A program made the position numbers and the translations under genes. From contig CAKKNE010000004.1 of the NCBI GenBank assembly GCA_918797485.1, positions 4,650,001-4,714,000 of the forward strand: a stretch of 64,000 nucleotides of DNA, written 5' to 3'. This DNA is from Pelagomonas calceolata (lineage: Eukaryota). Each line of letters starts with the position of its first letter. Position 1 is the stretch's first letter. Shown here in pieces: positions 108 to 61,066 of this stretch. Below the pieces are notes generated by a model. It worked only from the letters and a program-made list of their open reading frames with translations, searched no databases and was not told the DNA's origin.

Positions 108-977
108 ATGTTGTCAGCTTTTGCGGTATTCTTGTTCCTCTTTAGTCTGCTCGCGAAGACGCCCGTCGTTCTTCAGAGGGGGCTTTGCGCCTTGATCATT
201 GCCGCACTGCTCGCGTGGCTCGTACCGGCCTGTGTGGAAATCAACCAGTGCGTCGGGTGCTGCCACGCCATCGAGCAGGCGTCGCATCGATGGCGTGGAG
301 GTCGACGCGGAACGCGCCGTAAAATTTTGATTTCCACACAGGTACCGGCCGTAAAAAATGTGCTGACGCGCCCACGGGAACATGTGAGACGCCTCGTCCA
401 GGGCCTGCGCGGCCTCGGTAGAGAGGCCTGGGGCGTCGGGAAGGTTTTGGTGCCGGGTGCGGCCCTGGGACTGGTCTACTCGATGTTCGAGGTGGAGCTC
501 GAGACGCACCTGCTCACGGCTTTAGCGGGAGGCGTCGTTGTCATCATGGCGGTGAAGCCGCTGCGGAGCCGCGCGTTCCGCTACCTCGGCCAGGCGCTGG
601 CCGACACGGGCGTCACTCAGCCGCCGAGCGAGGCGCCGCGCATCCTCGAAGCCTTGCAGCGCCTCGCCACTTTACCCGTGGAACTATACGTTCCGATCAA
701 CGTCCTGGACGACGCGCAAGTCAAGGCCAAGCTCGAACGAGCCGGCTTCTCGCGCCGCGACGGCGCCGCGACGCCGAGCCGCGCCGAGCTCGAGGCGGCC
801 TACGACGACGCCTATGGCGCCTGCACCGTGTGCTTCGCTCAGTTTGAAGCCGGCGACGAGTGCGTGCGCCTCCTCTGCGGGCACGTCTTCCACCGCGACT
901 GCGTGGTCCAGTGGGTGAACACGCGGACGGAGTCGGGCCGCGTGCCGACGTGCCCCCAGTGCACCTGTGACATGTGA
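108..977 (+). CDS. Membrane-anchored RING-H2 E3 ubiquitin ligase-like protein; exons 108-221 and 342-977 (~249 aa)
   Basis: C-terminal CTVC...CGHVFHRDC...CPQC RING-H2 motif and several hydrophobic segments. First in-frame ATG at 108. Contains a 120-nt in-frame introner intron at 222-341. Confidence 0.8.
   Translation: MLSAFAVFLFLFSLLAKTPVVLQRGLCALIIAALLAWLVPACVEINQCVGCCHAIEQASHRWRGGRRGTRRKILISTQVPAVKNVLTRPREHVRRLVQGLRGLGREAWGVGKVLVPGAALGLVYSMFEVELETHLLTALAGGVVVIMAVKPLRSRAFRYLGQALADTGVTQPPSEAPRILEALQRLATLPVELYVPINVLDDAQVKAKLERAGFSRRDGAATPSRAELEAAYDDAYGACTVCFAQFEAGDECVRLLCGHVFHRDCVVQWVNTRTESGRVPTCPQCTCDM
230..341 (+). mobile_element. Introner element copy 1 (non-autonomous TIR transposon; intron 222-341)
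   Basis: Perfect TIRs CTGTGTGGAAATCAA / TTGATTTCCACACAG. Perfect 8-bp TSD GTACCGGC at 222-229 and 342-349. GT donor lies in the first TSD; AG acceptor is the TIR end. Confidence 0.93.
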
Positions 978-1434
978 GTAAGATGAGTATAGATATCCTG
1001 CCAGTGGACCGCTCAGATAGGCTGTCGCGTCGCGCGGCGTATTCGGGTCTTTCTTTTACAAGCGCGGCGACGTCGTCGACGCGGTCCCTCCGTGCCCGGG
1101 CGCGTGCGATGGTGTCCCCTTAACTGCCAGAGCCCGCATTTCAGCGCAGCGAGGCGTACGCGAGCAGAATGGCACCTCACCACACTCGAACCTAGGGGTC
1201 CGCGCCGGTGCCTCGAGACGTCGCCGGCGCCCCGGGAGCGTCAACCAGAGCCTGGGGAGTCCTGTATCGTCGCGATGCAGGCTCAGATAGCCTAACTAAT
1301 GTAAGTCCGCCGCCACAGCGCGCTCGCATCGAGCGCCTCTGCCGCGCGGGAGAGGCAAGGCGAGGCAGCCCCCGGCGCTTTTTCGGTCGTATTAGCTTCC
1401 AAATAAACCGGGCGAGGCAGCCCCACCCCCAAAG

Positions 1435-2082
1435 ATGCCCAACGTCGAGGACGAGCAGCACATCGTGCTGCCGGGCGCGCCGCCGGCCCACCTCCTGAAG
1501 CGCACGATGATCAAGGACTGCATCGGGCGGTGCCGCGCGACGTCCTACGATTTGCCCAAGGACGTCATGCACGTCTACGGCTACATCCAGGAGAAGGACA
1601 AGGCCGACGCCCGCGAATGCATTGGGGGCTGGGACCAGTTCACGCCGTCGGCCTGCTCGTCGGCCCAGCGGAGCTTCGTGAAGACGAACCTCGAGGCCTT
1701 GAAGGCGGGGAACATCACGGCCAAAAGCCAGAGGGAGTACCAGATCGCGAACCCGAACATTTTCAGTGCGCAAGCCAAGCCCGGCCACAAGCCGGATCGG
1801 CACAACAAGCCGCCCTTCGACGGGCCCTACGGCTTCGTGCCGAAGACGGGCACCGAGCCTTTGACACATACCATCGAGGGCCGCTACATGGGCCAGGGCG
1901 ACGACGACGCCGACTACCCGGACATCATCTCCATCAAGAAGGCGAACAAGCTGCCCGGGCCCAAGCCGACCAAAGCGAGCCAGGGCCACGCCGTCAAGGC
2001 CAAGGAGGAGTCCCCTCCGAAAAAACACTTCTGCATGAAGCGCTTCAAGAACATCAAGTCCCGGCTCAACCTCGACCAATGA
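1435..2082 (+). CDS. CFAP77: Cilia- and flagella-associated protein 77-like (DUF4483)
   Basis: 215-aa ORF with pattern IGRCRATSYDLP...VYG...ECIGGW...RSFVKTN.EALKAG.ITAK..REY, resembling CFAP77; strongly GC3-biased codons. Confidence 0.7.
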   Translation: MPNVEDEQHIVLPGAPPAHLLKRTMIKDCIGRCRATSYDLPKDVMHVYGYIQEKDKADARECIGGWDQFTPSACSSAQRSFVKTNLEALKAGNITAKSQREYQIANPNIFSAQAKPGHKPDRHNKPPFDGPYGFVPKTGTEPLTHTIEGRYMGQGDDDADYPDIISIKKANKLPGPKPTKASQGHAVKAKEESPPKKHFCMKRFKNIKSRLNLDQ

Positions 2083-2102
2083 GGCTAGTGTCTTAATCTT
2101 TT

Positions 2103-3248
2103 TCATATGAGTAGTGCGCGGTGGGGGTGGGGGCGTGCGGGGAGATCAGGAATGTTCATGGAAACGTGGGGCCGGTACGGATGGACGTGGCCGCCGTCGC
2201 CGACGCGGCAATACTTGTCGTACTCGCAGAGCTGGAACTGGACGTCGTGGATATCTAGAGAGACGCCCTTGCAGAACTCCGGGTCCAGGCTCAGGAGCGT
2301 TCGCAGGAGGAGCCGCATCTCCGTTATGAAGCGCGCCTCACCTCCGTCAAAATTGAGCGCGCGCCCGTGGAGCCGGTTCAGGCCCCGCCGCGCGCCGGGC
2401 CCCGGCGGCGTCCAGTCGCCCTCGTCGCGGACTAAGGCCCGCACCGACGGCCAGCCCATGGCATCGAGGAGCACCTCCTTCGCCATAAAGCCCGAGCCGC
2501 CGAAGCCACTGACTCGTCGAAGCCGCGTGCAGACCGCCCGCCACGACAGGCGGCCGCCGGCCGGCGCGGCGACAATATCATCGACGGCGAGTCGCAACCC
2601 TTCCAGCGTCGACAGTTCCTTGTCATAAACGTCGAGAGGTAAACGCGACCGCTCAGCGTTGAAACGGACCCGGTTGTAGGCGCTCGTGAAGGCGTGATTG
2701 CCGGCGTTCCAGCACGCGACGGCATTGCATCGTTCCAGGAAAGCGTTCCAAGCGCTCATGTCCGCCGTCCAGCCCGTTTGTTCCGCGAACGCCACCGTCC
2801 CAAACACGCGAAAAACACCGCAATTGAACAACACGGTCGCGGCGTCGGCGTTACCGTGCTTCGCGGTCCAGTGGGCGCGGAGCCACGCCGTCGTGCGATC
2901 ATGCTCGCGCTTTACGTTCGTGAATTTATATCGATTCAGGACGTCGTCGTCGGACCACGGCCACGGTGCGCCAGCGGCCTTCGCCAGGCGGATCTGTTCG
3001 CGGGTCTTGAGCATGCGTAGGAATTTTGCTGTCTCGGCCGGTGCCGGCGCCGCTGGGCTCGCTGCCACAGATGGTGGGCGTTTCTTTGTCGGCGCGGGCT
3101 CGGGCTCGGGCGCCGCGCGCTTCCGCGGGTTGTAGCCCAGCGGCAGGATCAAGATGGGCTGGCGCTTGGCCCACGCGGTTGGAGACACAAGCTCGCCGGC
3201 GTCATAGCGAGCCTTCAGTGTCGTCCGACTGAGGGGCAGCCCGCGCAT
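2103..3248 (-). CDS. Alpha-glutamyl/putrescinyl thymine pyrophosphorylase clade 1 (aGPT-Pplase1 / amino acid:DNA transferase) homolog; start uncertain (ATG 3248 or further upstream, ORF open to 3473)
   Basis: Ordered motifs REQIRLAK..G.PWPWSDDDVLNRYKFTNVKREHDRTT, LFNC.VFR.FG, AFTSAY, GFGGSGFMAKEVLLD, PGPGARRGLNRL, DVQFQLCEYDKY.R. Basic NLS-like segments (PRKRA, PTKKRP) precede the domain. Confidence 0.85.
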   Translation of the reverse strand: MRGLPLSRTTLKARYDAGELVSPTAWAKRQPILILPLGYNPRKRAAPEPEPAPTKKRPPSVAASPAAPAPAETAKFLRMLKTREQIRLAKAAGAPWPWSDDDVLNRYKFTNVKREHDRTTAWLRAHWTAKHGNADAATVLFNCGVFRVFGTVAFAEQTGWTADMSAWNAFLERCNAVACWNAGNHAFTSAYNRVRFNAERSRLPLDVYDKELSTLEGLRLAVDDIVAAPAGGRLSWRAVCTRLRRVSGFGGSGFMAKEVLLDAMGWPSVRALVRDEGDWTPPGPGARRGLNRLHGRALNFDGGEARFITEMRLLLRTLLSLDPEFCKGVSLDIHDVQFQLCEYDKYCRVGDGGHVHPYRPHVSMNIPDLPARPHPHRALLI

Positions 3249-3646
3249 GCCTTCAGCGGCCTCCTCGTATGCGCCGTTGCTCGGCCTGGGCTGCCAGGGC
3301 CTGCTGGTGCCCGGCGGCCATGCCCTTAACCATGGGGAGCAGGAGGCATGGCCACAGCAAGGGGGGAGCATCAGGCACGCCACAGGCCATGTCTGCAGAA
3401 AAAGAGCCAAAAACGCACTGACCGGCAGCCGCAGCGGGGCATTGGCCTGCGGAGGCACCAGAGCCCATTTCAAGCTGTGCTCTGTGGATCGAGCTGAGAG
3501 CTTTCTTGCGGGTTCGGGCAGCCAGAAACGAGGCGAGAAGGCGAGGCCTGGAGACTCCTTGGAGACAGCTACAATAAGCCCCGGCCCGCGACCGCCGACG
3601 AATCCGAGACGCGGCCCGCAAAACGCAAGAGAACACTCGAGACACC

Positions 3647-4843
3647 TTACACGGGCTCCTCCTCGCGCCCCTTACAGTCGCCGTTCGGACCGTACCCGTA
3701 CCGCGCCGCCGCCGCCGCGACCTCCCGCAATTTTGGAGGAGGCAGCGCCGAGACCAAATCACTCCAGCTCACGTTCGCGTGCCGCCGGTGGTGGGGAATC
3801 CTAGGACCATCAGCACACGCACCTCTCAAACAGCGTTTCGGGTCGAAGATGCCGCGGTTCGCGATCCAGTGCGACCAGGCCCGCGCGAGTGTCCCGGCCG
3901 TATCAAGGCCGGCCTGGAAGGCTTCCGTCGACGACACACACACCCTCTCCCCACTCTTCTCGTCGTCGCGCGCCAGTTCCACCAAATCACACAACGCCGC
4001 CCCACTCAAATCGTCCTCGATGCGCGCCCTCGCGTCCGCGAAGCGCTCGATCCTCTCGTTCCAGCCGAGCCACACGTTCGATAAAAAGAGCAGCCACCGA
4101 TCTCTCCTCCTCGACTCCTTCTCGCTCAGGGTGAGGCGGTAGAGGGACCGCTCGAGCTGCGTCGCTCCCGTAGGTGCGTCCTCCGGGGGCGGCGGCGGCA
4201 GCGCTAAGGCTCGAGCGGCGAAAGCCAGGGTAGACCGCTTATGCGTCGATAGTGCCGCGACGTTGCCGACGGGACACCTTATGATCTGCAAAACCCTCCG
4301 AAACCTCACGTCCAAGTCGCGGACGGCCGCCGCCGCGGGGGGCACCGGGTACGGCCTTTGCGTGGAGTCGCGCACGGCGTACAACCAACACACACTGCCA
4401 TCCCTCCCGAGGCGCTCGTGCTCCACTCGTAAGCCCGCGTCACGCAACCTCAAAGAAGCGTGCCACGAGCCCGCTCCGCCCAGCGAAGTAACCAGTAAAG
4501 GCAATCGAACTTTCCGCGAGTAGACGGTCTTCTTCGAGCGGCCGCAGGCCGGCGGCACCATCTTGAGGGTCGCGTCGCGCAAAAAGCGGCAGTGCCGCGA
4601 GGACACCACCACGGGTGCTGTCGTGTTCGTCGTCATCGGCTTGCGCGGCCTCCGGTAGACGCCGCGCGGGACGGACGACATGAAGGCGCGCGTGAAAAAC
4701 CTCAAATTGCAGGCGAAGACCGCGATCATGATCATAGCTCCTAAAAAGGCGAGCGCGCTCGAGTGCGTCGTCGCGACGAAGCCGCTGCCCGTGCGCCGGC
4801 GCAGCAGCGTCGGCGTCCGCAGGGACGGGAGGGCGTCGCGCAT
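3647..4843 (-). CDS. Sulfotransferase-like protein with N-terminal signal anchor
   Basis: Hydrophobic anchor ALAFLGAMIMIAVFA; PAPS-loop-like LLVTSLGGAGS; LRVEHERLGRDGSVCW; 3'-PB-like VLQIIRCP. Confidence 0.55.
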   Translation of the reverse strand: MRDALPSLRTPTLLRRRTGSGFVATTHSSALAFLGAMIMIAVFACNLRFFTRAFMSSVPRGVYRRPRKPMTTNTTAPVVVSSRHCRFLRDATLKMVPPACGRSKKTVYSRKVRLPLLVTSLGGAGSWHASLRLRDAGLRVEHERLGRDGSVCWLYAVRDSTQRPYPVPPAAAAVRDLDVRFRRVLQIIRCPVGNVAALSTHKRSTLAFAARALALPPPPPEDAPTGATQLERSLYRLTLSEKESRRRDRWLLFLSNVWLGWNERIERFADARARIEDDLSGAALCDLVELARDDEKSGERVCVSSTEAFQAGLDTAGTLARAWSHWIANRGIFDPKRCLRGACADGPRIPHHRRHANVSWSDLVSALPPPKLREVAAAAARYGYGPNGDCKGREEEPV

Positions 4844-5324
4844 GGTTTTTGTTGCGCTGCGGCGCTCGCGTGGCTTGGGTCAAACTAGTTTTGTCTTGTG
4901 CGCCTCGTCACGCGCTGTGAGAGCGCACGCTTTGAGGCTAGGCCTATCTAGAGATATAAAAGCGTGCCGGGCGGCCCAGCGGGTCCATCTTTGATGCGGT
5001 AGCGGCCTCAAAGCCAAGTCGCAGCCGAACCGGGCTAGTATGTCGACGCTAGGTATTATTTTCCCGGCGGCGACTAGTCTGTTGATTCTTCATCTCAGAC
5101 GCCTCCGAGGCTTGGCAACGTGCATGCTTGCCGATTTTCAGCAGCGCTCGGCGCCGCTGCAGCATTTGGTTTGCTTTGCGGACGTGCCTGTGTTCACCAC
5201 ATTGGCGCATCTATTACACACAGCGCTTTCGGTGCGCTGCGTTATTATCGCGCTTGCATTCTTGCGCCACAAGACGCGCTGTGAAACCCCAAAACTCCCG
5301 CGCTCTCACAGATGTTTGAAAATT

Positions 5325-6641
5325 ATGGAGGTCGTAGCGCCGCCCACGGCGCCGCCAGCAGCCACTGACATGAAGATCACCTCACCGGCGCCGCCCGCGC
5401 CGCCCAAGAGCGTCTCGCCCGAGAAGCCCATCAACGGCCCGCTCGCGGCGCTCAAGCAACTCGTCGCGACGGCCGACGCTGATCAAGCCCAAACGCTCTC
5501 CACGGAGCTCAAGGCCTTGGTGAAGCAGTGCGAGCAACGAATCGTAGACGCGCGCAAGGCCGCCTCGGAAACGAATTTGGGCGAGGTGCGCTGGACGTGC
5601 GACGCGACGTGTTTGCAACCGAGGGGCAAGGCAACTCTCAGAGTAGGAGACCACGCTATCGTGGTGGTCAACCCGAAGGACGGCGCGGTCAAGGGCGAGT
5701 TCCCCTTCATGTCGATGAAGGCTGCTTTTACATTACCGCCGACCGAGAAGTCGCAGCCGTCCGAAGCGGCCACGCTACTCCTAGCCGCCTCCGTCACCAC
5801 TCCAAAGCCTGCTACCAAAATCACGTCGAAACTCATGCAGGACGCCTTCAAGAAGGCGTCGCTCGCATTGACGGTGAACGACAAGTACTCGAAGGCTACG
5901 CCGTGCCCCGGCACCACCACGACACTAGCAAACGTTGCACCACATCTCGCCTCCTTAACAAAGGTCGCCAATAGATCCTTACTGAAGGGCGGCAAGGATC
6001 CCATGAGCTTCAAGAGCGCGATATCGTCATTACCGTATGTGAAAGCGACACTAGGCGCGGCGCAGGGCAACCTCCATTTAGTTGACCTTGGTATTCTCTT
6101 CTTGAAACCGTTAGTATTTCTACCCTGCGAAGCTATCGCGTCCATCGATTGTGGGAGAGCAGGAGCCGGGAACTGCTCGTCCTTCGATCTCATGGTCGAG
6201 ATGGAACGCCCTTGGGACACTTCTGATGACGACAAGCCGGCGAAACCGCCGGCCTTCGAGTTCTCGAACATCCGGAAGGACGAGTTGGAAGGAGTGCAGA
6301 AATTCATCAGAGATGTGCTGCTGCCGTGCCGGGCCAAATTACGAAGGGAATTGGCGGAGAAGAAGGGCGAGCCCCAGGCGATCGAGGAGGACTCGGATGA
6401 TGAGGATGACGACTACGAGGCGCAGTCCTCGAGCGACGAGGACTCGGACGACTCGTCGCTCGAGGACTCGGAGGCGGGCGACGACCGCGGCGACGAGACC
6501 GAATCAAACGACGAGCGCGAGGGCTCGGCCGAGGAGCCCATCACCTTCGAGAGCGACGACGAGGCGGCGGCAGCGCGCGACGAGCCCGCGTCGCCCTCGT
6601 CGGAGCCCGCCGCCAAGAAGCTCCGCGCGGGCTCGCAGTAG
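5325..6641 (+). CDS. Rtt106/SSRP1-type PH-domain histone chaperone-like protein with acidic tail
   Basis: YVKATLGAAQGNLHLVDLGILFLKPLVFLP...SFDLMV...FEFSNIRKDE resembles the Rtt106 PH domain. Long D/E/S tail and terminal PAAKKLR NLS. Start at ATG 5325 is inferred. Confidence 0.75.
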   Translation: MEVVAPPTAPPAATDMKITSPAPPAPPKSVSPEKPINGPLAALKQLVATADADQAQTLSTELKALVKQCEQRIVDARKAASETNLGEVRWTCDATCLQPRGKATLRVGDHAIVVVNPKDGAVKGEFPFMSMKAAFTLPPTEKSQPSEAATLLLAASVTTPKPATKITSKLMQDAFKKASLALTVNDKYSKATPCPGTTTTLANVAPHLASLTKVANRSLLKGGKDPMSFKSAISSLPYVKATLGAAQGNLHLVDLGILFLKPLVFLPCEAIASIDCGRAGAGNCSSFDLMVEMERPWDTSDDDKPAKPPAFEFSNIRKDELEGVQKFIRDVLLPCRAKLRRELAEKKGEPQAIEEDSDDEDDDYEAQSSSDEDSDDSSLEDSEAGDDRGDETESNDEREGSAEEPITFESDDEAAAARDEPASPSSEPAAKKLRAGSQ

Positions 6642-7949: not shown

Positions 7950-8036
7950 CAAGCGGCTCGCGCCCGCCGCCGATGAATCGGTGACGCGCGGTGTCTCCCC
8001 ACACAAGGGACTCCGCCCGCGAGTCCTAGCACCGTC
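7950..8036 (+). repeat. Dispersed intergenic repeat, copy A
   Basis: 7950-8000 matches 56897-56947 at 47 of 51 positions. Both copies are followed by a CCTAGCACCGT motif. Confidence 0.75.
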
Positions 8037-18266: not shown

Positions 18267-18291
18267 GCTAGCGGTCTGTAAGACACTAGCA
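18267..18291 (+). promoter_or_regulatory. 25-bp recurrent intergenic motif GCTAGCGGYCTGTAAGACACTAGCA
   Basis: Near-identical copies at 26630-26656, 57976-58000, 59262-59286 and, reversed, 56800-56824. Function unknown. Confidence 0.6.
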
Positions 18292-26629: not shown

Positions 26630-26656
26630 GCTAGCGGCCTGTAAGACATACTAGCA
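26630..26656 (+). promoter_or_regulatory. Recurrent intergenic motif copy (2-nt insertion)
   Basis: GCTAGCGGCCTGTAAGACATACTAGCA between the GH16 stop and the TGS1 start. Confidence 0.55.
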
Positions 26657-56741: not shown

Positions 56742-56799
56742 GGTTCCATCTGCCAGACCACTTGCATGGCTGCCCCGGTGCCAACTGATCGAATGGGCT

Positions 56800-56824
56800 T
56801 GCTAGTGTCTTACGTGCCGCTAGC
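56800..56824 (-). promoter_or_regulatory. Recurrent intergenic motif copy (reverse orientation)
   Basis: Reverse complement reads GCTAGCGGCACGTAAGACACTAGCA. Confidence 0.55.
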
Positions 56825-56896
56825 ACGGCGACGCGGTCCCAGCCCTGGGCAGGGGCTCCGCCCACTAGTTCCAGCACCGTAACAATGGATGACATC

Positions 56897-57004
56897 CAAG
56901 CGGCCCGCGCCCGCCGCCGACGAATCGGCGACACGCGGTGTCTCCCCCCAGGGGCCTGCCTACTAGTCCTCCTAGCACCTCCCTAGCACCTCCCTAGCAC
57001 CGTA
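56897..57004 (+). repeat. Dispersed intergenic repeat, copy B, with CCTAGCACC x3 tail
   Basis: 47/51 identity to 7950-8000; tandem (T)CCTAGCACC units at ~56970-57001. Confidence 0.75.
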
Positions 57005-57975: not shown

Positions 57976-58000
57976 GCTAGCGGCCTGTAAGACACTAGCA
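57976..58000 (+). promoter_or_regulatory. Recurrent intergenic motif copy
   Basis: GCTAGCGGCCTGTAAGACACTAGCA. Confidence 0.6.
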
Positions 58001-58070
58001 AGCAGGTTTCGCCCCAATAACGGCTCTCTGCCGCCGTAACAGAAGTATAACAAGCTGGGTATCAAAAGCA

Positions 58071-59045: not shown

Positions 59046-59261
59046 TGTCTTGGTGGCTGTAGCTCTCTGCGGGAACGCGTCGGCTGCGCGTTAGTGCCTT
59101 ATGAATGATAGATGAAGGGTGCTGTACGTCGTGAACCTTCGGCTGGGGCGTCAGACGTCGGGGGTGCTTTTGACTGATGGAGTAAGCGCGCTGCGCGTCG
59201 TGAACCTTCGTAATTCGCATGCACCCGCCGTTCTCGTCAAAATTGCCGATTATTCTTTTTT

Positions 59262-59286
59262 GCTAGCGGCATGTAAGACACTAGCA
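59262..59286 (+). promoter_or_regulatory. Recurrent intergenic motif copy
   Basis: GCTAGCGGCATGTAAGACACTAGCA in a divergent intergenic region. Confidence 0.6.
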
Positions 59287-59536
59287 AGCTCTCTTTGCAT
59301 TCAAAATCTCTCAGACGCTCGTTGCTCCTGCATACGGGCTTCACCGCTGAAGCAAAGGAGCAGCGTTCGTCTCCCGTCTCCTGTGAACGTGCCTGCTGCC
59401 GTAGGCTGCGCTTGCATCACCGGCGAGCGAGAAATAAGCGCGCGCCAAGAGCTGGCCAGCCAAGAGCAGCTTGCTGCGTCACGCGACGCGCAGCAACTAG
59501 GCCCCGCCAAGCCACACACAGCCACAGATAGCAGCC

Positions 59537-61066
59537 ATGGCCAGCATCTCCATCGTCGTCCGCGACGCCGACGGTACTACAGTAGAGACGTGCCACGACA
59601 GCGCCGCGGACAAGGAATTTGCAAAAGGCGGCTACAGCGGCGCGCGCCGGGCCTTCGCGGCCAAGAAGTTCGACAAGAACGTTAAATTAGCGGACGGCCA
59701 CACGCTCGTGTTGCTCGTCGACGGCGTCGCGAAGCTGACGCACCCCGAACAAAAAAAGGGCAAGAAGCGCGCCGCCGGCGGCACGCCGCGCGCGCCGAAG
59801 CCCGCCGCCAAAAAGGCCGCGACGGCCGAGAAGCCCAAGCCGAGCGAGGCGGGCTGGACGCCGCCCGCCTCAACTGACGAAGCTGCGTCGAGCCCGCCCA
59901 AAAAAACCTGCACGCCGTCGATGCTGTTGAGCATGAAGATGAAGAGCGGCAAGCCGCCCGTGGAAATGGAGCGGGAGGTCCACTCGCCGCAGGTGAAGCC
60001 CCGGAAGAAGAAGCGCGTCGTCGTGGAGGAGTCCGACGACGAGTCGCTGCCTGAACAAAAGCGGACGGACGAGGACTCGGAGGAGGAAATGGACTTCGAC
60101 GCCCCAGAGAAGGAGGAAGAAGTGGAAGAAGTGGTGGAGACGGCGGAGGCGCCCGCGCTGTCCACGGCGGGCGGCGCGGCGCGGGCGTGGTCGGCCTTCT
60201 CCGAGAAGACGACGAAGCCTGATGAAGGCGACGCCAAAGGCGATCAGTGGAACAAGGTCGACGAGGACGACGACGGGTGTGCGGTCGTCAACGTCGTGCA
60301 GGCCCTGAGTCCGAAGGCACTGGCGCAGAAGTTCGACGCGGCCGGGCTACTGTTACTGGAAAGTTCGAAGTGGATTCTGTCAAGAGAAGCCCTGAAGAGT
60401 TTGAAAGATGCCATTTCGGCACGGTACGCTTCAAAACTCGCCGAGGCGCAAGAAGAGGGCCTCGTGACGAAGAAGCGCAAAGACTTGTTGAAGGACGCCG
60501 AGACCGAGACCTTGGCGGGCTTCAACCAGCGACCGGGCGGGCGCGTGGACATGGTGCTCGACGATTTACAAGCTGTTCAGGGGTTTGACTGGCCCTGGGC
60601 TCCTGCTGTGAAAGCTATTCTGGGTCCTTCCTCGTCCCTGAACTACGTGGGGTGTGTGGTCGCGCGGCCGGGCGACGCGACGCAGAACTGGCACATCGAC
60701 GGCGTTCATAGTGTGGAGGAGTACCACGCTCGAGCGGACCGGGTGATCGTGTTTTGTCCTTTGACGGACCTGACGGAGAAGACGGGGTGCACGGAGTTCA
60801 TCCCGACGTCCCACTACAAGTCTAGAGGAAAATACAAGTTCGAGCAAGTGGCGTCGATGCCGCGCGCGAGACATTACCTCCATGCGGGCACGCCCGTCGT
60901 CATGGACTACCGGCTGTGGCACCGCGGCCTGCCGAACACTGGGGAGACTGATAGATACCTGCTCTACACGGTCTTCCAGAAGGCCGAGACCAAAAAGGCC
61001 ATGGAGCTCACGGGCGGGTCGAAGGTCGCGCTATCCAAGGGCGTCGACGGGTCGCGGGCGTGGTAG
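59537..61066 (+). CDS. PhyH-like 2OG-Fe(II) dioxygenase with disordered, NLS-bearing N-terminus
   Basis: QNWHIDG, PLTDLTEKTGCTEFIPTSH, MDYRLWHRGLPN...RYLLY; KKGKKR and PRKKKR basic motifs. Confidence 0.85.
   Translation: MASISIVVRDADGTTVETCHDSAADKEFAKGGYSGARRAFAAKKFDKNVKLADGHTLVLLVDGVAKLTHPEQKKGKKRAAGGTPRAPKPAAKKAATAEKPKPSEAGWTPPASTDEAASSPPKKTCTPSMLLSMKMKSGKPPVEMEREVHSPQVKPRKKKRVVVEESDDESLPEQKRTDEDSEEEMDFDAPEKEEEVEEVVETAEAPALSTAGGAARAWSAFSEKTTKPDEGDAKGDQWNKVDEDDDGCAVVNVVQALSPKALAQKFDAAGLLLLESSKWILSREALKSLKDAISARYASKLAEAQEEGLVTKKRKDLLKDAETETLAGFNQRPGGRVDMVLDDLQAVQGFDWPWAPAVKAILGPSSSLNYVGCVVARPGDATQNWHIDGVHSVEEYHARADRVIVFCPLTDLTEKTGCTEFIPTSHYKSRGKYKFEQVASMPRARHYLHAGTPVVMDYRLWHRGLPNTGETDRYLLYTVFQKAETKKAMELTGGSKVALSKGVDGSRAW

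What the first reader, a model, noticed from the sequence alone, without database searches (positions are those of the whole stretch)
2103..3248. Phage-type DNA thymidine hypermodification enzyme in an algal nuclear genome
Seen: the full ordered motif set PWSDD.VL..YKFTNV.REHDR, FMAKEVLLD, GPGARRGL and Q..LCEYDKY, preceded by NLS-like basic patches, in a gene flanked by ordinary eukaryotic genes. Established: aGPT-Pplase1/amino acid:DNA transferases of phages such as PhiW-14, SP10 and M6 displace the pyrophosphate of kinase-activated 5-hydroxymethyluracil in DNA to attach amines or amino acids. Sporadic eukaryotic homologs have been noted computationally, but I know of no characterised algal activity. 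Inference: this alga may carry an undescribed hypermodified base (epigenetic mark or antiviral defence), or use the glycosylase-like fold for another DNA reaction. No 5-hmU kinase is visible in the window.
Basis: partly seen in the sequence, partly recalled or inferred. Interest (0 to 1): 0.85.

Follow-up and report, generated by a model that had tools for sequence, protein, structure and literature searches.

The report
Phage-type thymine-editing enzyme family in pelagophytes
A common ocean alga transcribes a gene from a phage DNA-modification family; related pelagophyte genes carry histone-reading PHD fingers, so these algae likely edit oxidised thymine in their chromatin, although no such base or enzyme activity has been shown.

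Summary
The gene is real: intronless, polyadenylated, under purifying selection, in Pelagomonas calceolata. It belongs to PF18723 (clade-1 aGPT-Pplase, E 1e-30) and has a helix-hairpin-helix glycosylase-type fold. All five transferases tabulated by Lee 2022 are clade 2; the clade-1 relative in M6 (gp55) was dispensable. The catalytic Cys aligns (C341), but the essential clade-2 Glu is Gln337. Nearest phage and bacterial relatives rarely have a 5-hmU kinase nearby (2 of 28, 0 of 9 loci), but 26 of 28 phage loci have a dUMP-type thymidylate-synthase homologue. New here: other pelagophyte copies are fused to ING-type PHD fingers, and this gene is a short, reader-less paralogue that seems to exchange sequence with the long form. 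P. calceolata also has a second, divergent family member. Best reading (0.4): a Cys-dependent enzyme that processes 5-hydroxymethyluracil in DNA without a kinase, most likely returning it to thymine. No genome was held, so partner enzymes and modified bases are untested.

The parts
2103..3248 (-). Coding sequence, 381 aa, intronless; short reader-less clade-1 aGPT-Pplase (PF18723) paralogue
   Evidence: polyA RNA-seq from 4 runs of one sample covers it on the minus strand with no splice joint
2202..3026 (-). PF18723 core (aa 75-349), all-helical HhH-glycosylase-type fold
   Evidence: model pLDDT above 90 over about aa 71-350; Z 10.9 to PaMx11 gp46, tied with QNG1/DUF2419, OGG and Mag1
2226..2240 (-). 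Q337-F-Q-L-C341: C341 corresponds to the catalytic Cys of clade-2 transferases, Q337 to their essential Glu
   Evidence: MAFFT alignment with M6 gp51; structural end offset 349/255 puts C341 at gp46 C247
2358..2444 (-). Segment (aa 269-297) of long-paralogue type, a likely gene-conversion tract; dimorphic among syntenic alleles (6 of 9 long-type)
3033..3248 (-). Low-confidence N-terminal 72 aa with basic patches; length varies from 38 to 82 aa among relatives; the 35-aa intron of the public gene model is not seen in reads
3249..3475 (-). 5' leader; transcript ends cluster at 3465-3475; it holds one in-frame ATG (3371) and six out-of-frame ATGs, one of them (3468) at the transcript end
1435..2082 (+). 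Convergent neighbour CFAP77; its polyA site (2110) overlaps the end of this gene; syntenic in metagenomic alleles
3647..4852 (-). Upstream gene of unknown family; separate transcript (polyA at 3632); 97-100% identical in 4 alleles; used as a selection control

Best explanation
The gene is a transcribed, reader-less copy of a pelagophyte PF18723 family whose protein likely flips 5-hydroxymethyluracil out of nuclear DNA, likely bonds to its C6 through Cys341 without prior phosphorylation, and most likely returns it to thymine. Shown here: expression, fold class, the conserved Cys, purifying selection, PHD-fused relatives, and the neighbourhoods of prokaryotic relatives. Inferred: the substrate (5hmU in DNA), the Cys-C6 adduct with an exocyclic methylene, kinase independence, and the product. 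The product could instead be an adduct with a small nucleophile. In the long pelagophyte form, ING-type PHD fingers would bring this activity to H3K4me3 chromatin. The window's short form lost those readers after a duplication and would act untargeted.
For: Cys is invariant in 16 of 16 aligned rows spanning clade 1, the divergent family and clade 2. The core fold matches gp46 (Z 10.9, rmsd 4.1, 217 aligned), which flips T and attacks C6 with C247 (PMC11472151 sections 10 and 22). 26 of 28 QF-type phage loci carry a thymidylate-synthase homologue, and 74 of 76 such ORFs have Asn at the substrate-specifying position, like M6 gp58 (Asn = dUMP, Asp = dCMP is recalled). This points to a uracil-based substrate. 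Kinase is nearby in 2 of 28 QF phage loci and 0 of 9 QF bacterial loci, against 8 of 8 QN-type loci; clade 2 is nearby in 0 of 28. Virions of hypermodifying phages contain no 5-hmdU, part being converted to T. Clade 1 is listed in all four such phages (PMC5889632 Table 3) and is dispensable for the M6 hypermodification. Borohydride converts the clade-2 intermediate to T. dN/dS is 0.15-0.22 in 9 of 9 alleles. Long relatives have PHD fingers whose best PDB hits are ING proteins (E 9e-14).
Against: No clade-1 activity was found in the papers read. Q337 replaces a Glu that is essential in clade 2. Hydroxyl is a poor leaving group without a kinase; the precedent of C5-methyltransferases acting on 5hmC is recalled, not checked. 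The fold is tied (Z within 1) with hydrolytic glycosylases QNG1, OGG and Mag1. No genome was held, so a TET/JBP source of 5hmU in this alga is untested. Kinases can lie far from the gene in phage genomes, and my kinase HMM came from two seeds. SP10 has only clade 1, fused to the kinase, and makes glutamylthymine, which suggests clade 1 can be a writer.
Confidence: 0.4

Rival explanations
1. One reading: a writer that, after a 5-hmU DNA kinase, attaches an amine or amino acid to thymine, giving the alga a hypermodified base.
For: Cys is conserved and the fold is shared with gp46. SP10 has only clade 1 and makes glutamylthymine. P. calceolata has a second divergent paralogue, recalling the paired paralogues of phages.
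Against: All five tabulated transferases are clade 2. Glu is replaced by Gln. Kinase is nearby in only 2 of 28 QF phage loci. No kinase fusion in 33 long relatives scanned with Pfam or in any stored protein with my HMM. No kinase in the window. The second paralogue also has Gln and resembles clade 1, not clade 2.
Confidence: 0.2
2. A glycosylase or a non-catalytic reader of oxidised or modified pyrimidines, working in repair or chromatin signalling.
For: Fold tie with QNG1, OGG and Mag1. Glu-to-Gln change at the metal-binding position. One relative carries an extra HhH-GPD match (P0390).
Against: Cys and a large set of core residues are invariant or nearly so across phage, bacterial and algal rows. 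The repair-glycosylase resemblance is structural only; no PDB sequence hit at E up to 1.
Confidence: 0.2
3. The short paralogue is an antiviral effector acting on 5hmU-bearing foreign DNA rather than on the alga's own chromatin.
For: A PF18723 protein is part of the validated E. coli defence system DS-4 (PMC13092281 supplement rows). Several bacterial QF loci lie near integrase, transposase or type I restriction genes. The short form lost its chromatin readers, recombines and has dN/dS two to five times that of two neighbours.
Against: dN/dS stays well under 1. Silent divergence is as high in the neighbours, so deep alleles are regional or species-wide. A third neighbour's N-terminus gives 0.25. 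No PADLOC match for 11 of 11 proteins. The contribution of the PF18723 protein within DS-4 was not seen.
Confidence: 0.12
4. The short gene is a redundant duplicate drifting under relaxed selection, kept alive by gene conversion from the long paralogue.
For: Truncated N-terminus, conversion-like tract, upstream ATGs in the leader, and frameshifted database copies (P0022, P0025, P0028, L012), which may be assembly errors.
Against: Core motifs are kept in 20-21 of 21 short-form proteins. dN/dS is about 0.2. It is retained in two lineages since the duplication and is expressed.
Confidence: 0.08

Closest known systems
Clade-1 aGPT-Pplase, Pfam PF18723 HMUDK_hel (M6 gp55, PhiW-14 gp72, ViI gp160, C-terminal domain of SP10 gp186)
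   Same: Full-length domain match; hhalign E 8.7e-38 to M6 gp55; Foldseek TM 0.56-0.63 to PhiW-14 and SP10 models; CE[FY]DK motif.
   Different: Belongs to a QF-motif subclade (Gln where gp55 has Glu); nuclear eukaryotic gene; no kinase nearby; relatives fused to PHD fingers. No clade-1 activity was found in the papers read.
Clade-2 amino acid:DNA transferases, Pfam PF18724 ADDT (M6 gp51, PaMx11 gp46, ViI gp247, PhiW-14 gp109)
   Same: Shared helical fold (Z 10.9) and aligned catalytic Cys.
   Different: No PF18724 match; no significant profile match to gp51; essential Glu is Gln; kinase coupling not seen.
HhH-GPD glycosylases and QNG1/DUF2419 (OGG, Mag1, queuine salvage hydrolase)
   Same: Fold, Z 9.8-10.6.
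   Different: No sequence match; catalytic residues of these enzymes were not mapped.
E. coli defence system DS-4 (thymidylate synthase, dNMP kinase, PF18723, TIR, NMAD)
   Same: Cellular use of a PF18723 protein.
   Different: Multi-gene prokaryotic operon; none of the tested partner types (thymidylate synthase, kinase, Nmad5) is in this window.
Eukaryotic thymine modifications: base J of kinetoplastids and 5hmU of dinoflagellates
   Same: 5hmU in nuclear DNA as an epigenetic intermediate or mark (PMC11065753 passages; PMC11572971 listing and passages). A divergent PF18723-like protein occurs in Breviolum minutum.
   Different: Those use TET/JBP plus a glucosyltransferase; no PF18723 step was found in the passages read.

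Membership tests
PF18723 clade-1 aGPT-Pplase | Profile match above the curated cut-off over the whole domain | tested here: met
   107.6 bits against 25; profile positions 6-274 of 281
PF18723 clade-1 aGPT-Pplase | HhH-glycosylase-like helical fold | tested here: met
   (predicted model)
PF18723 clade-1 aGPT-Pplase | Conserved CE[FY]DK, GPGA and N..RE.D motifs | tested here: met
Amino acid:DNA transferase (PF18724, clade 2) | Profile match to PF18724 or to M6 gp51 | tested here: not met
   No PF18724 hit at E up to 0.1; hhalign E 0.084; gp51 itself scores 159.6 bits
Amino acid:DNA transferase (PF18724, clade 2) | Catalytic cysteine | tested here: met
   C341 aligns with the gp51 Cys and, by end offset, with gp46 C247
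Amino acid:DNA transferase (PF18724, clade 2) | Essential glutamate four residues before the cysteine | tested here: not met
   Q337, invariant in 98 of 98 aligned relatives
Phage thymidine hypermodification pathway | 5-hmU DNA kinase and a 5hmU source in the same genome | not testable with these tools
   No genome held; absent from the window
Phage thymidine hypermodification pathway | Modified thymidine in genomic DNA | not testable with these tools
   Needs LC-MS/MS or signal-level long-read data
HhH-GPD DNA glycosylases / QNG1 | Catalytic Asp/Lys and base excision | not tested
   Only a fold tie was seen
Pelagophyte Tudor-UBA-PHD-PF18723 long form | PHD fingers on the same polypeptide | tested here: not met
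   Transcript starts near 3467 with no splice joint to upstream sequence; no PHD match in P0001 or P0121
Pelagophyte Tudor-UBA-PHD-PF18723 long form | Descent from the long form | tested here: met
   Short forms (SH-aLRT 100) are sister to long P0166/P0167 (97), nested among other pelagophyte forms; quick tree, midpoint root

The most novel reading that the evidence does not exclude
Pelagophyte algae run a histone-guided thymine-modification cycle built from phage-type parts. An ING-PHD-fused PF18723 enzyme edits 5hmU-type bases at H3K4me3 chromatin, an untargeted short paralogue (this gene) and a second divergent paralogue extend it genome-wide, and the chemistry is the unassigned clade-1 reaction (5hmU to T, or a new kinase-free base adduct).
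Probability: 0.3. Interest if true: 0.9.

Novelty: new variant of a known kind. Interest (0 to 1): 0.62.

Why it matters
No clade-1 aGPT-Pplase activity was found in the papers read, and phages that start with 5hmU DNA turn part of it into thymine by a step those passages do not assign to an enzyme. A compact, expressed, single-domain eukaryotic member from a cultured alga is a ready test protein for that question. The ING-PHD fusion in pelagophyte relatives ties a phage DNA-base enzyme to histone marks, the same route by which TET/JBP and methyltransferases became epigenetic (recalled). If a modified thymine exists in this abundant ocean alga, it would add to the short list of eukaryotic DNA marks beside base J, dinoflagellate 5hmU and glyceryl-methylcytosine.

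Tried and rejected
Whole-genome search for kinase and TET/JBP: no genome held. Iyer 2013 (NAR 41:7635), which defined the family, is not held; I recall it noting eukaryotic homologues, so it or its supplements may already list the PHD fusion. Literature searches listed no paper on a pelagophyte PF18723 protein or pelagophyte thymine modification; listings only, subscription journals are not covered. Earlier findings: none. Recent viral origin or transposon cargo: rejected. A viral scan for the divergent family gave one candidate and no locus. Cytosine-based substrate in phage relatives: not supported, as the neighbouring synthases have Asn. Locus-specific balancing selection: not supported, as neighbours have equal silent divergence and the second family is also polymorphic. 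Upstream gene as a kinase partner: no match in Pfam, NCBIfam, PHROGs, PDB or my kinase HMM. The intron in the public gene model: not seen in reads. Foldseek on PDB gave nothing at E under 0.001. The wide VIA search, the fold search for the divergent family's model and the Atlas search for the upstream gene gave no answer because the machines were busy. Whether P. calceolata itself encodes the long PHD form stays open; only indirect evidence was obtained.

Full report
Observation. Window 2103-3248 on the minus strand encodes 381 aa (P0001) with all four quoted motifs in order. Pfam PF18723 (HMUDK_hel; the older name aGPT-Pplase1 is recalled and also appears in a phage annotation) covers aa 75-349 at E 9.5e-31. 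The same 90% cluster holds CAH0375203.1 of Pelagomonas calceolata on a 5.3 Mb contig, whose core matches P0001 as printed. No whole genome was held.

Gene structure and expression. Four polyA RNA-seq runs of one sample were laid on 1300-5300. Reads cover the gene with the orientation opposite to CFAP77, hence on the minus strand. In run X21 depth is about 40-70, against about 500 for CFAP77, with a dip at 2372-2505, the most GC-rich stretch. No splice joint was reported, so the 35-aa intron in the public model is unsupported. Transcript ends cluster at 3465-3475. The upstream gene has its own polyA site at 3632, so this gene is not a 3' exon of a longer protein. The leader holds seven ATGs, one in frame; the start shared by the short-form relatives is 3248.

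Selection. Nine metagenomic contigs (L001-L008, L012, of 14 loci found) are syntenic with the window. Over the core, dN/dS against the window is 0.15-0.22 in 9 of 9, with dS 0.33-0.62. The upstream gene gives 0.04-0.05 (4 loci), CFAP77 0.06-0.10 (4 loci), and the N-terminus of a third neighbour 0.25 (1 locus). The gene is under purifying selection, looser than two neighbours. Silent divergence is not special to it. Alleles recombine: among 130 informative sites, 18% of pairs within 30 nt are incompatible against 33-38% further apart, and 0 of 1000 permutations were as low.

Which clade. Lee 2022 (PMC8989533; passages and Discussion) tabulates five amino acid or amine transferases, all clade 2. 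It shows a monophosphate intermediate, shows that a Cys and a nearby Glu are essential, and found M6 gp55 dispensable. My scans place gp51 in PF18724 and gp55 in PF18723; Table 3 of Lee 2018 (PMC5889632, passages) labels the two the other way round. The family alignment A1 (98 proteins) matches gp55 at E 8.7e-38 and gp51 at E 0.084. The protein is therefore clade 1, and I found no demonstrated activity for that clade.

Structure and active site. The AlphaFold model (mean pLDDT 84.8) gave no Foldseek PDB hit under E 0.001. VIA-align ranks PaMx11 gp46 first (Z 10.9, rmsd 4.1, 217 aligned), tied with QNG1/DUF2419, Mag1 and OGG. Viral models of PhiW-14 and SP10 clade-1 proteins match at E 5e-9 and 2e-6. 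gp46 flips T and is proposed to attack C6 with C247, with E243 binding the metal (PMC11472151, abstract, part 1 of section 10 and section 22). C341 aligns with that Cys and Q337 with that Glu. M6 gp55 keeps Glu there, whereas this subclade has Gln in 98 of 98 rows.

Prokaryotic context. Among 28 QF-type viral loci, 26 have a thymidylate-synthase homologue, 10 a TAGT glycosyltransferase, 2 a kinase and 0 a clade-2 gene. Among 38 EH-type loci 5 have a kinase, and among 8 QN-type loci all 8 do. 74 of 76 synthase ORFs have Asn at the specificity position, as M6 gp58 does, which points to a uracil-based substrate. Among 9 QF bacterial loci none has a kinase, and 7 have a convergent dCTP-deaminase-like gene plus an unknown 181-aa gene; several lie near mobile or restriction genes. 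Flanks were at most 6 kb and the HMMs were home-built, so distant kinases are not excluded. A PF18723 protein is part of the validated E. coli defence system DS-4 (PMC13092281, passages and supplement rows).

Pelagophyte context, the main new result. A search for longer relatives returned 6 proteins. P0166 and P0167 (872 and 924 aa, 65-66% identical in the best local alignment) and P0152 carry PHD fingers before the PF18723 domain. P0167 also has weak Tudor and UBA matches below cut-off. The best PDB matches of P0167 are ING-family PHD fingers (E 9e-14); that ING PHDs read H3K4me3 is recalled. Weak PHD matches occur in Pelagophyceae CCMP2097, Aureoumbra and P0320; the Chrysophaeum protein shows none. 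A quick ML tree of 91 rows (4 rows skipped, SH-aLRT only, midpoint root) groups 14 pelagophyte rows at 100. Short forms (100) are sister to P0166/P0167 (97), with Aureococcus-like long forms outside. A presumed-eukaryote group (98) sits with mostly alphaproteobacterial rows (93, not starred) inside the QF clade (100). The short gene thus arose by duplication and loss of the readers; the donor to eukaryotes is not established. In a second lineage, long (L010) and short (L011) genes come from contigs with the same assembly prefix.

Does this species also hold the long form? This is not shown directly. For: locus L013 (P0167 type) shares a 28-bp repeat with the window and with allele L002. Over aa 269-297 the window allele matches L013 at 24 of 27 synonymous codons against 79 of 151 elsewhere, but the short orthologue L011 at only 11 of 23. 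Six of 9 alleles carry this long-type segment and three the short type, and L007 shares a 65-nt perfect run with L013. This suggests gene conversion. The tract was chosen after viewing the data, and the two long genes are also alike there (22 of 24), so the donor is not pinned. Against: the P0167 cluster is nearly monomorphic (4 distinct cores of 11), while other genes of this species are diverse (PMC10087736 passages report a higher SNP density than in two other species). No named P. calceolata record was among the 15 of 119 members listed.

A second family. In L011 the next gene encodes a divergent relative (profile match to A1 E 1.1e-7) with Gln, Cys and Glu in the same motif. It has 32 relatives, including P. 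calceolata CAH0369793.1 on another contig, Aureococcus and Chrysophaeum, and a distant Breviolum minutum protein with a weak PF18723 hit. A profile search found 4754 representatives at E up to 0.001.

Mechanism. I commit to Cys-dependent processing of 5hmU in DNA without a kinase, most likely back to thymine (0.4). This rests on the shared Cys and fold, the uracil-type neighbours, the weak kinase coupling, the unassigned 5hmU-to-T step of hypermodifying phages, and borohydride trapping of the clade-2 intermediate to T. Rivals are a kinase-dependent writer (0.2; SP10 has only clade 1), a glycosylase or reader (0.2), an antiviral effector (0.12) and a drifting duplicate (0.08). No step of the chemistry was shown here.

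Novelty. The family and the existence of eukaryotic homologues are known (fungi in PMC5889632; Iyer 2013 recalled, not held; its supplements could bear on the PHD fusion). Ten searches (listings) showed nothing on pelagophyte members. PMC11065753, PMC11572971, PMC4738411 and bioRxiv 2023.12.21.572611 were searched for passages and gave none on this family. Verdict: a new variant of a known kind, interest 0.62.

Noticed in passing
L011:9375-10649 (+); P0241 = CAH0369793.1: Divergent PF18723-like family with no Pfam hit, conserved across pelagophytes, adjacent to the short gene in one lineage and unlinked in P. calceolata; distant relative in Breviolum minutum. A model was built (pLDDT 83.1) but not fold-searched.
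   Followed up: partly
window 3647-4852 (-): Expressed, strongly conserved 401-aa gene with a hydrophobic N-terminal segment and motifs that by eye recall sulfotransferases (recalled pattern); no match in Pfam, NCBIfam, PHROGs or PDB.
   Followed up: partly
L015:6883-8145, L016, L017, L018, L019, L020, L023: In 7 of 9 QF-type bacterial loci the PF18723 gene is accompanied by a dCTP-deaminase-like gene and an unknown ~181-aa gene, in several cases near integrases, transposases or type I restriction genes; a candidate three-gene defence module with no PADLOC match.
   Followed up: partly
window 32721-54086 (-): A single 7121-aa ORF with two subtilase plus P-domain units, laminin G domains and DUF285 repeats.
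   Followed up: no
window 18267-18291, 26630-26648, 56796-56825, 57976-58003, 59260-59289; L002:556-584; L013:6071-6099: A ~28-bp dispersed repeat; a second ~74-bp element at window 7951-8035 and 56898-56979 is shared with L009 and L010.
   Followed up: partly
window 238-340, 11039, 32851: Copies of a short repeated sequence that look like introner-type intron ends (the introner label is recalled).
   Followed up: no
L013:1812-4220; P0181 versus P0186: The long PHD gene exists with two different N-termini: 931 aa with the Tudor/UBA-like part, and 796-803 aa without it.
   Followed up: no
window 700-5600 versus L001-L008, L012: Syntenic metagenomic contigs differ from the window by about 5-25% in DNA while neighbour proteins stay 96-100% identical: very deep, recombining diversity in wild Pelagomonas.
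   Followed up: partly
window 2103-2110: The CFAP77 polyA site overlaps the last codons of the convergent PF18723 gene.
   Followed up: no
window 59537-61066 (+): PhyH-family 2-oxoglutarate dioxygenase; not TET/JBP by Pfam, no link to the finding shown.
   Followed up: no
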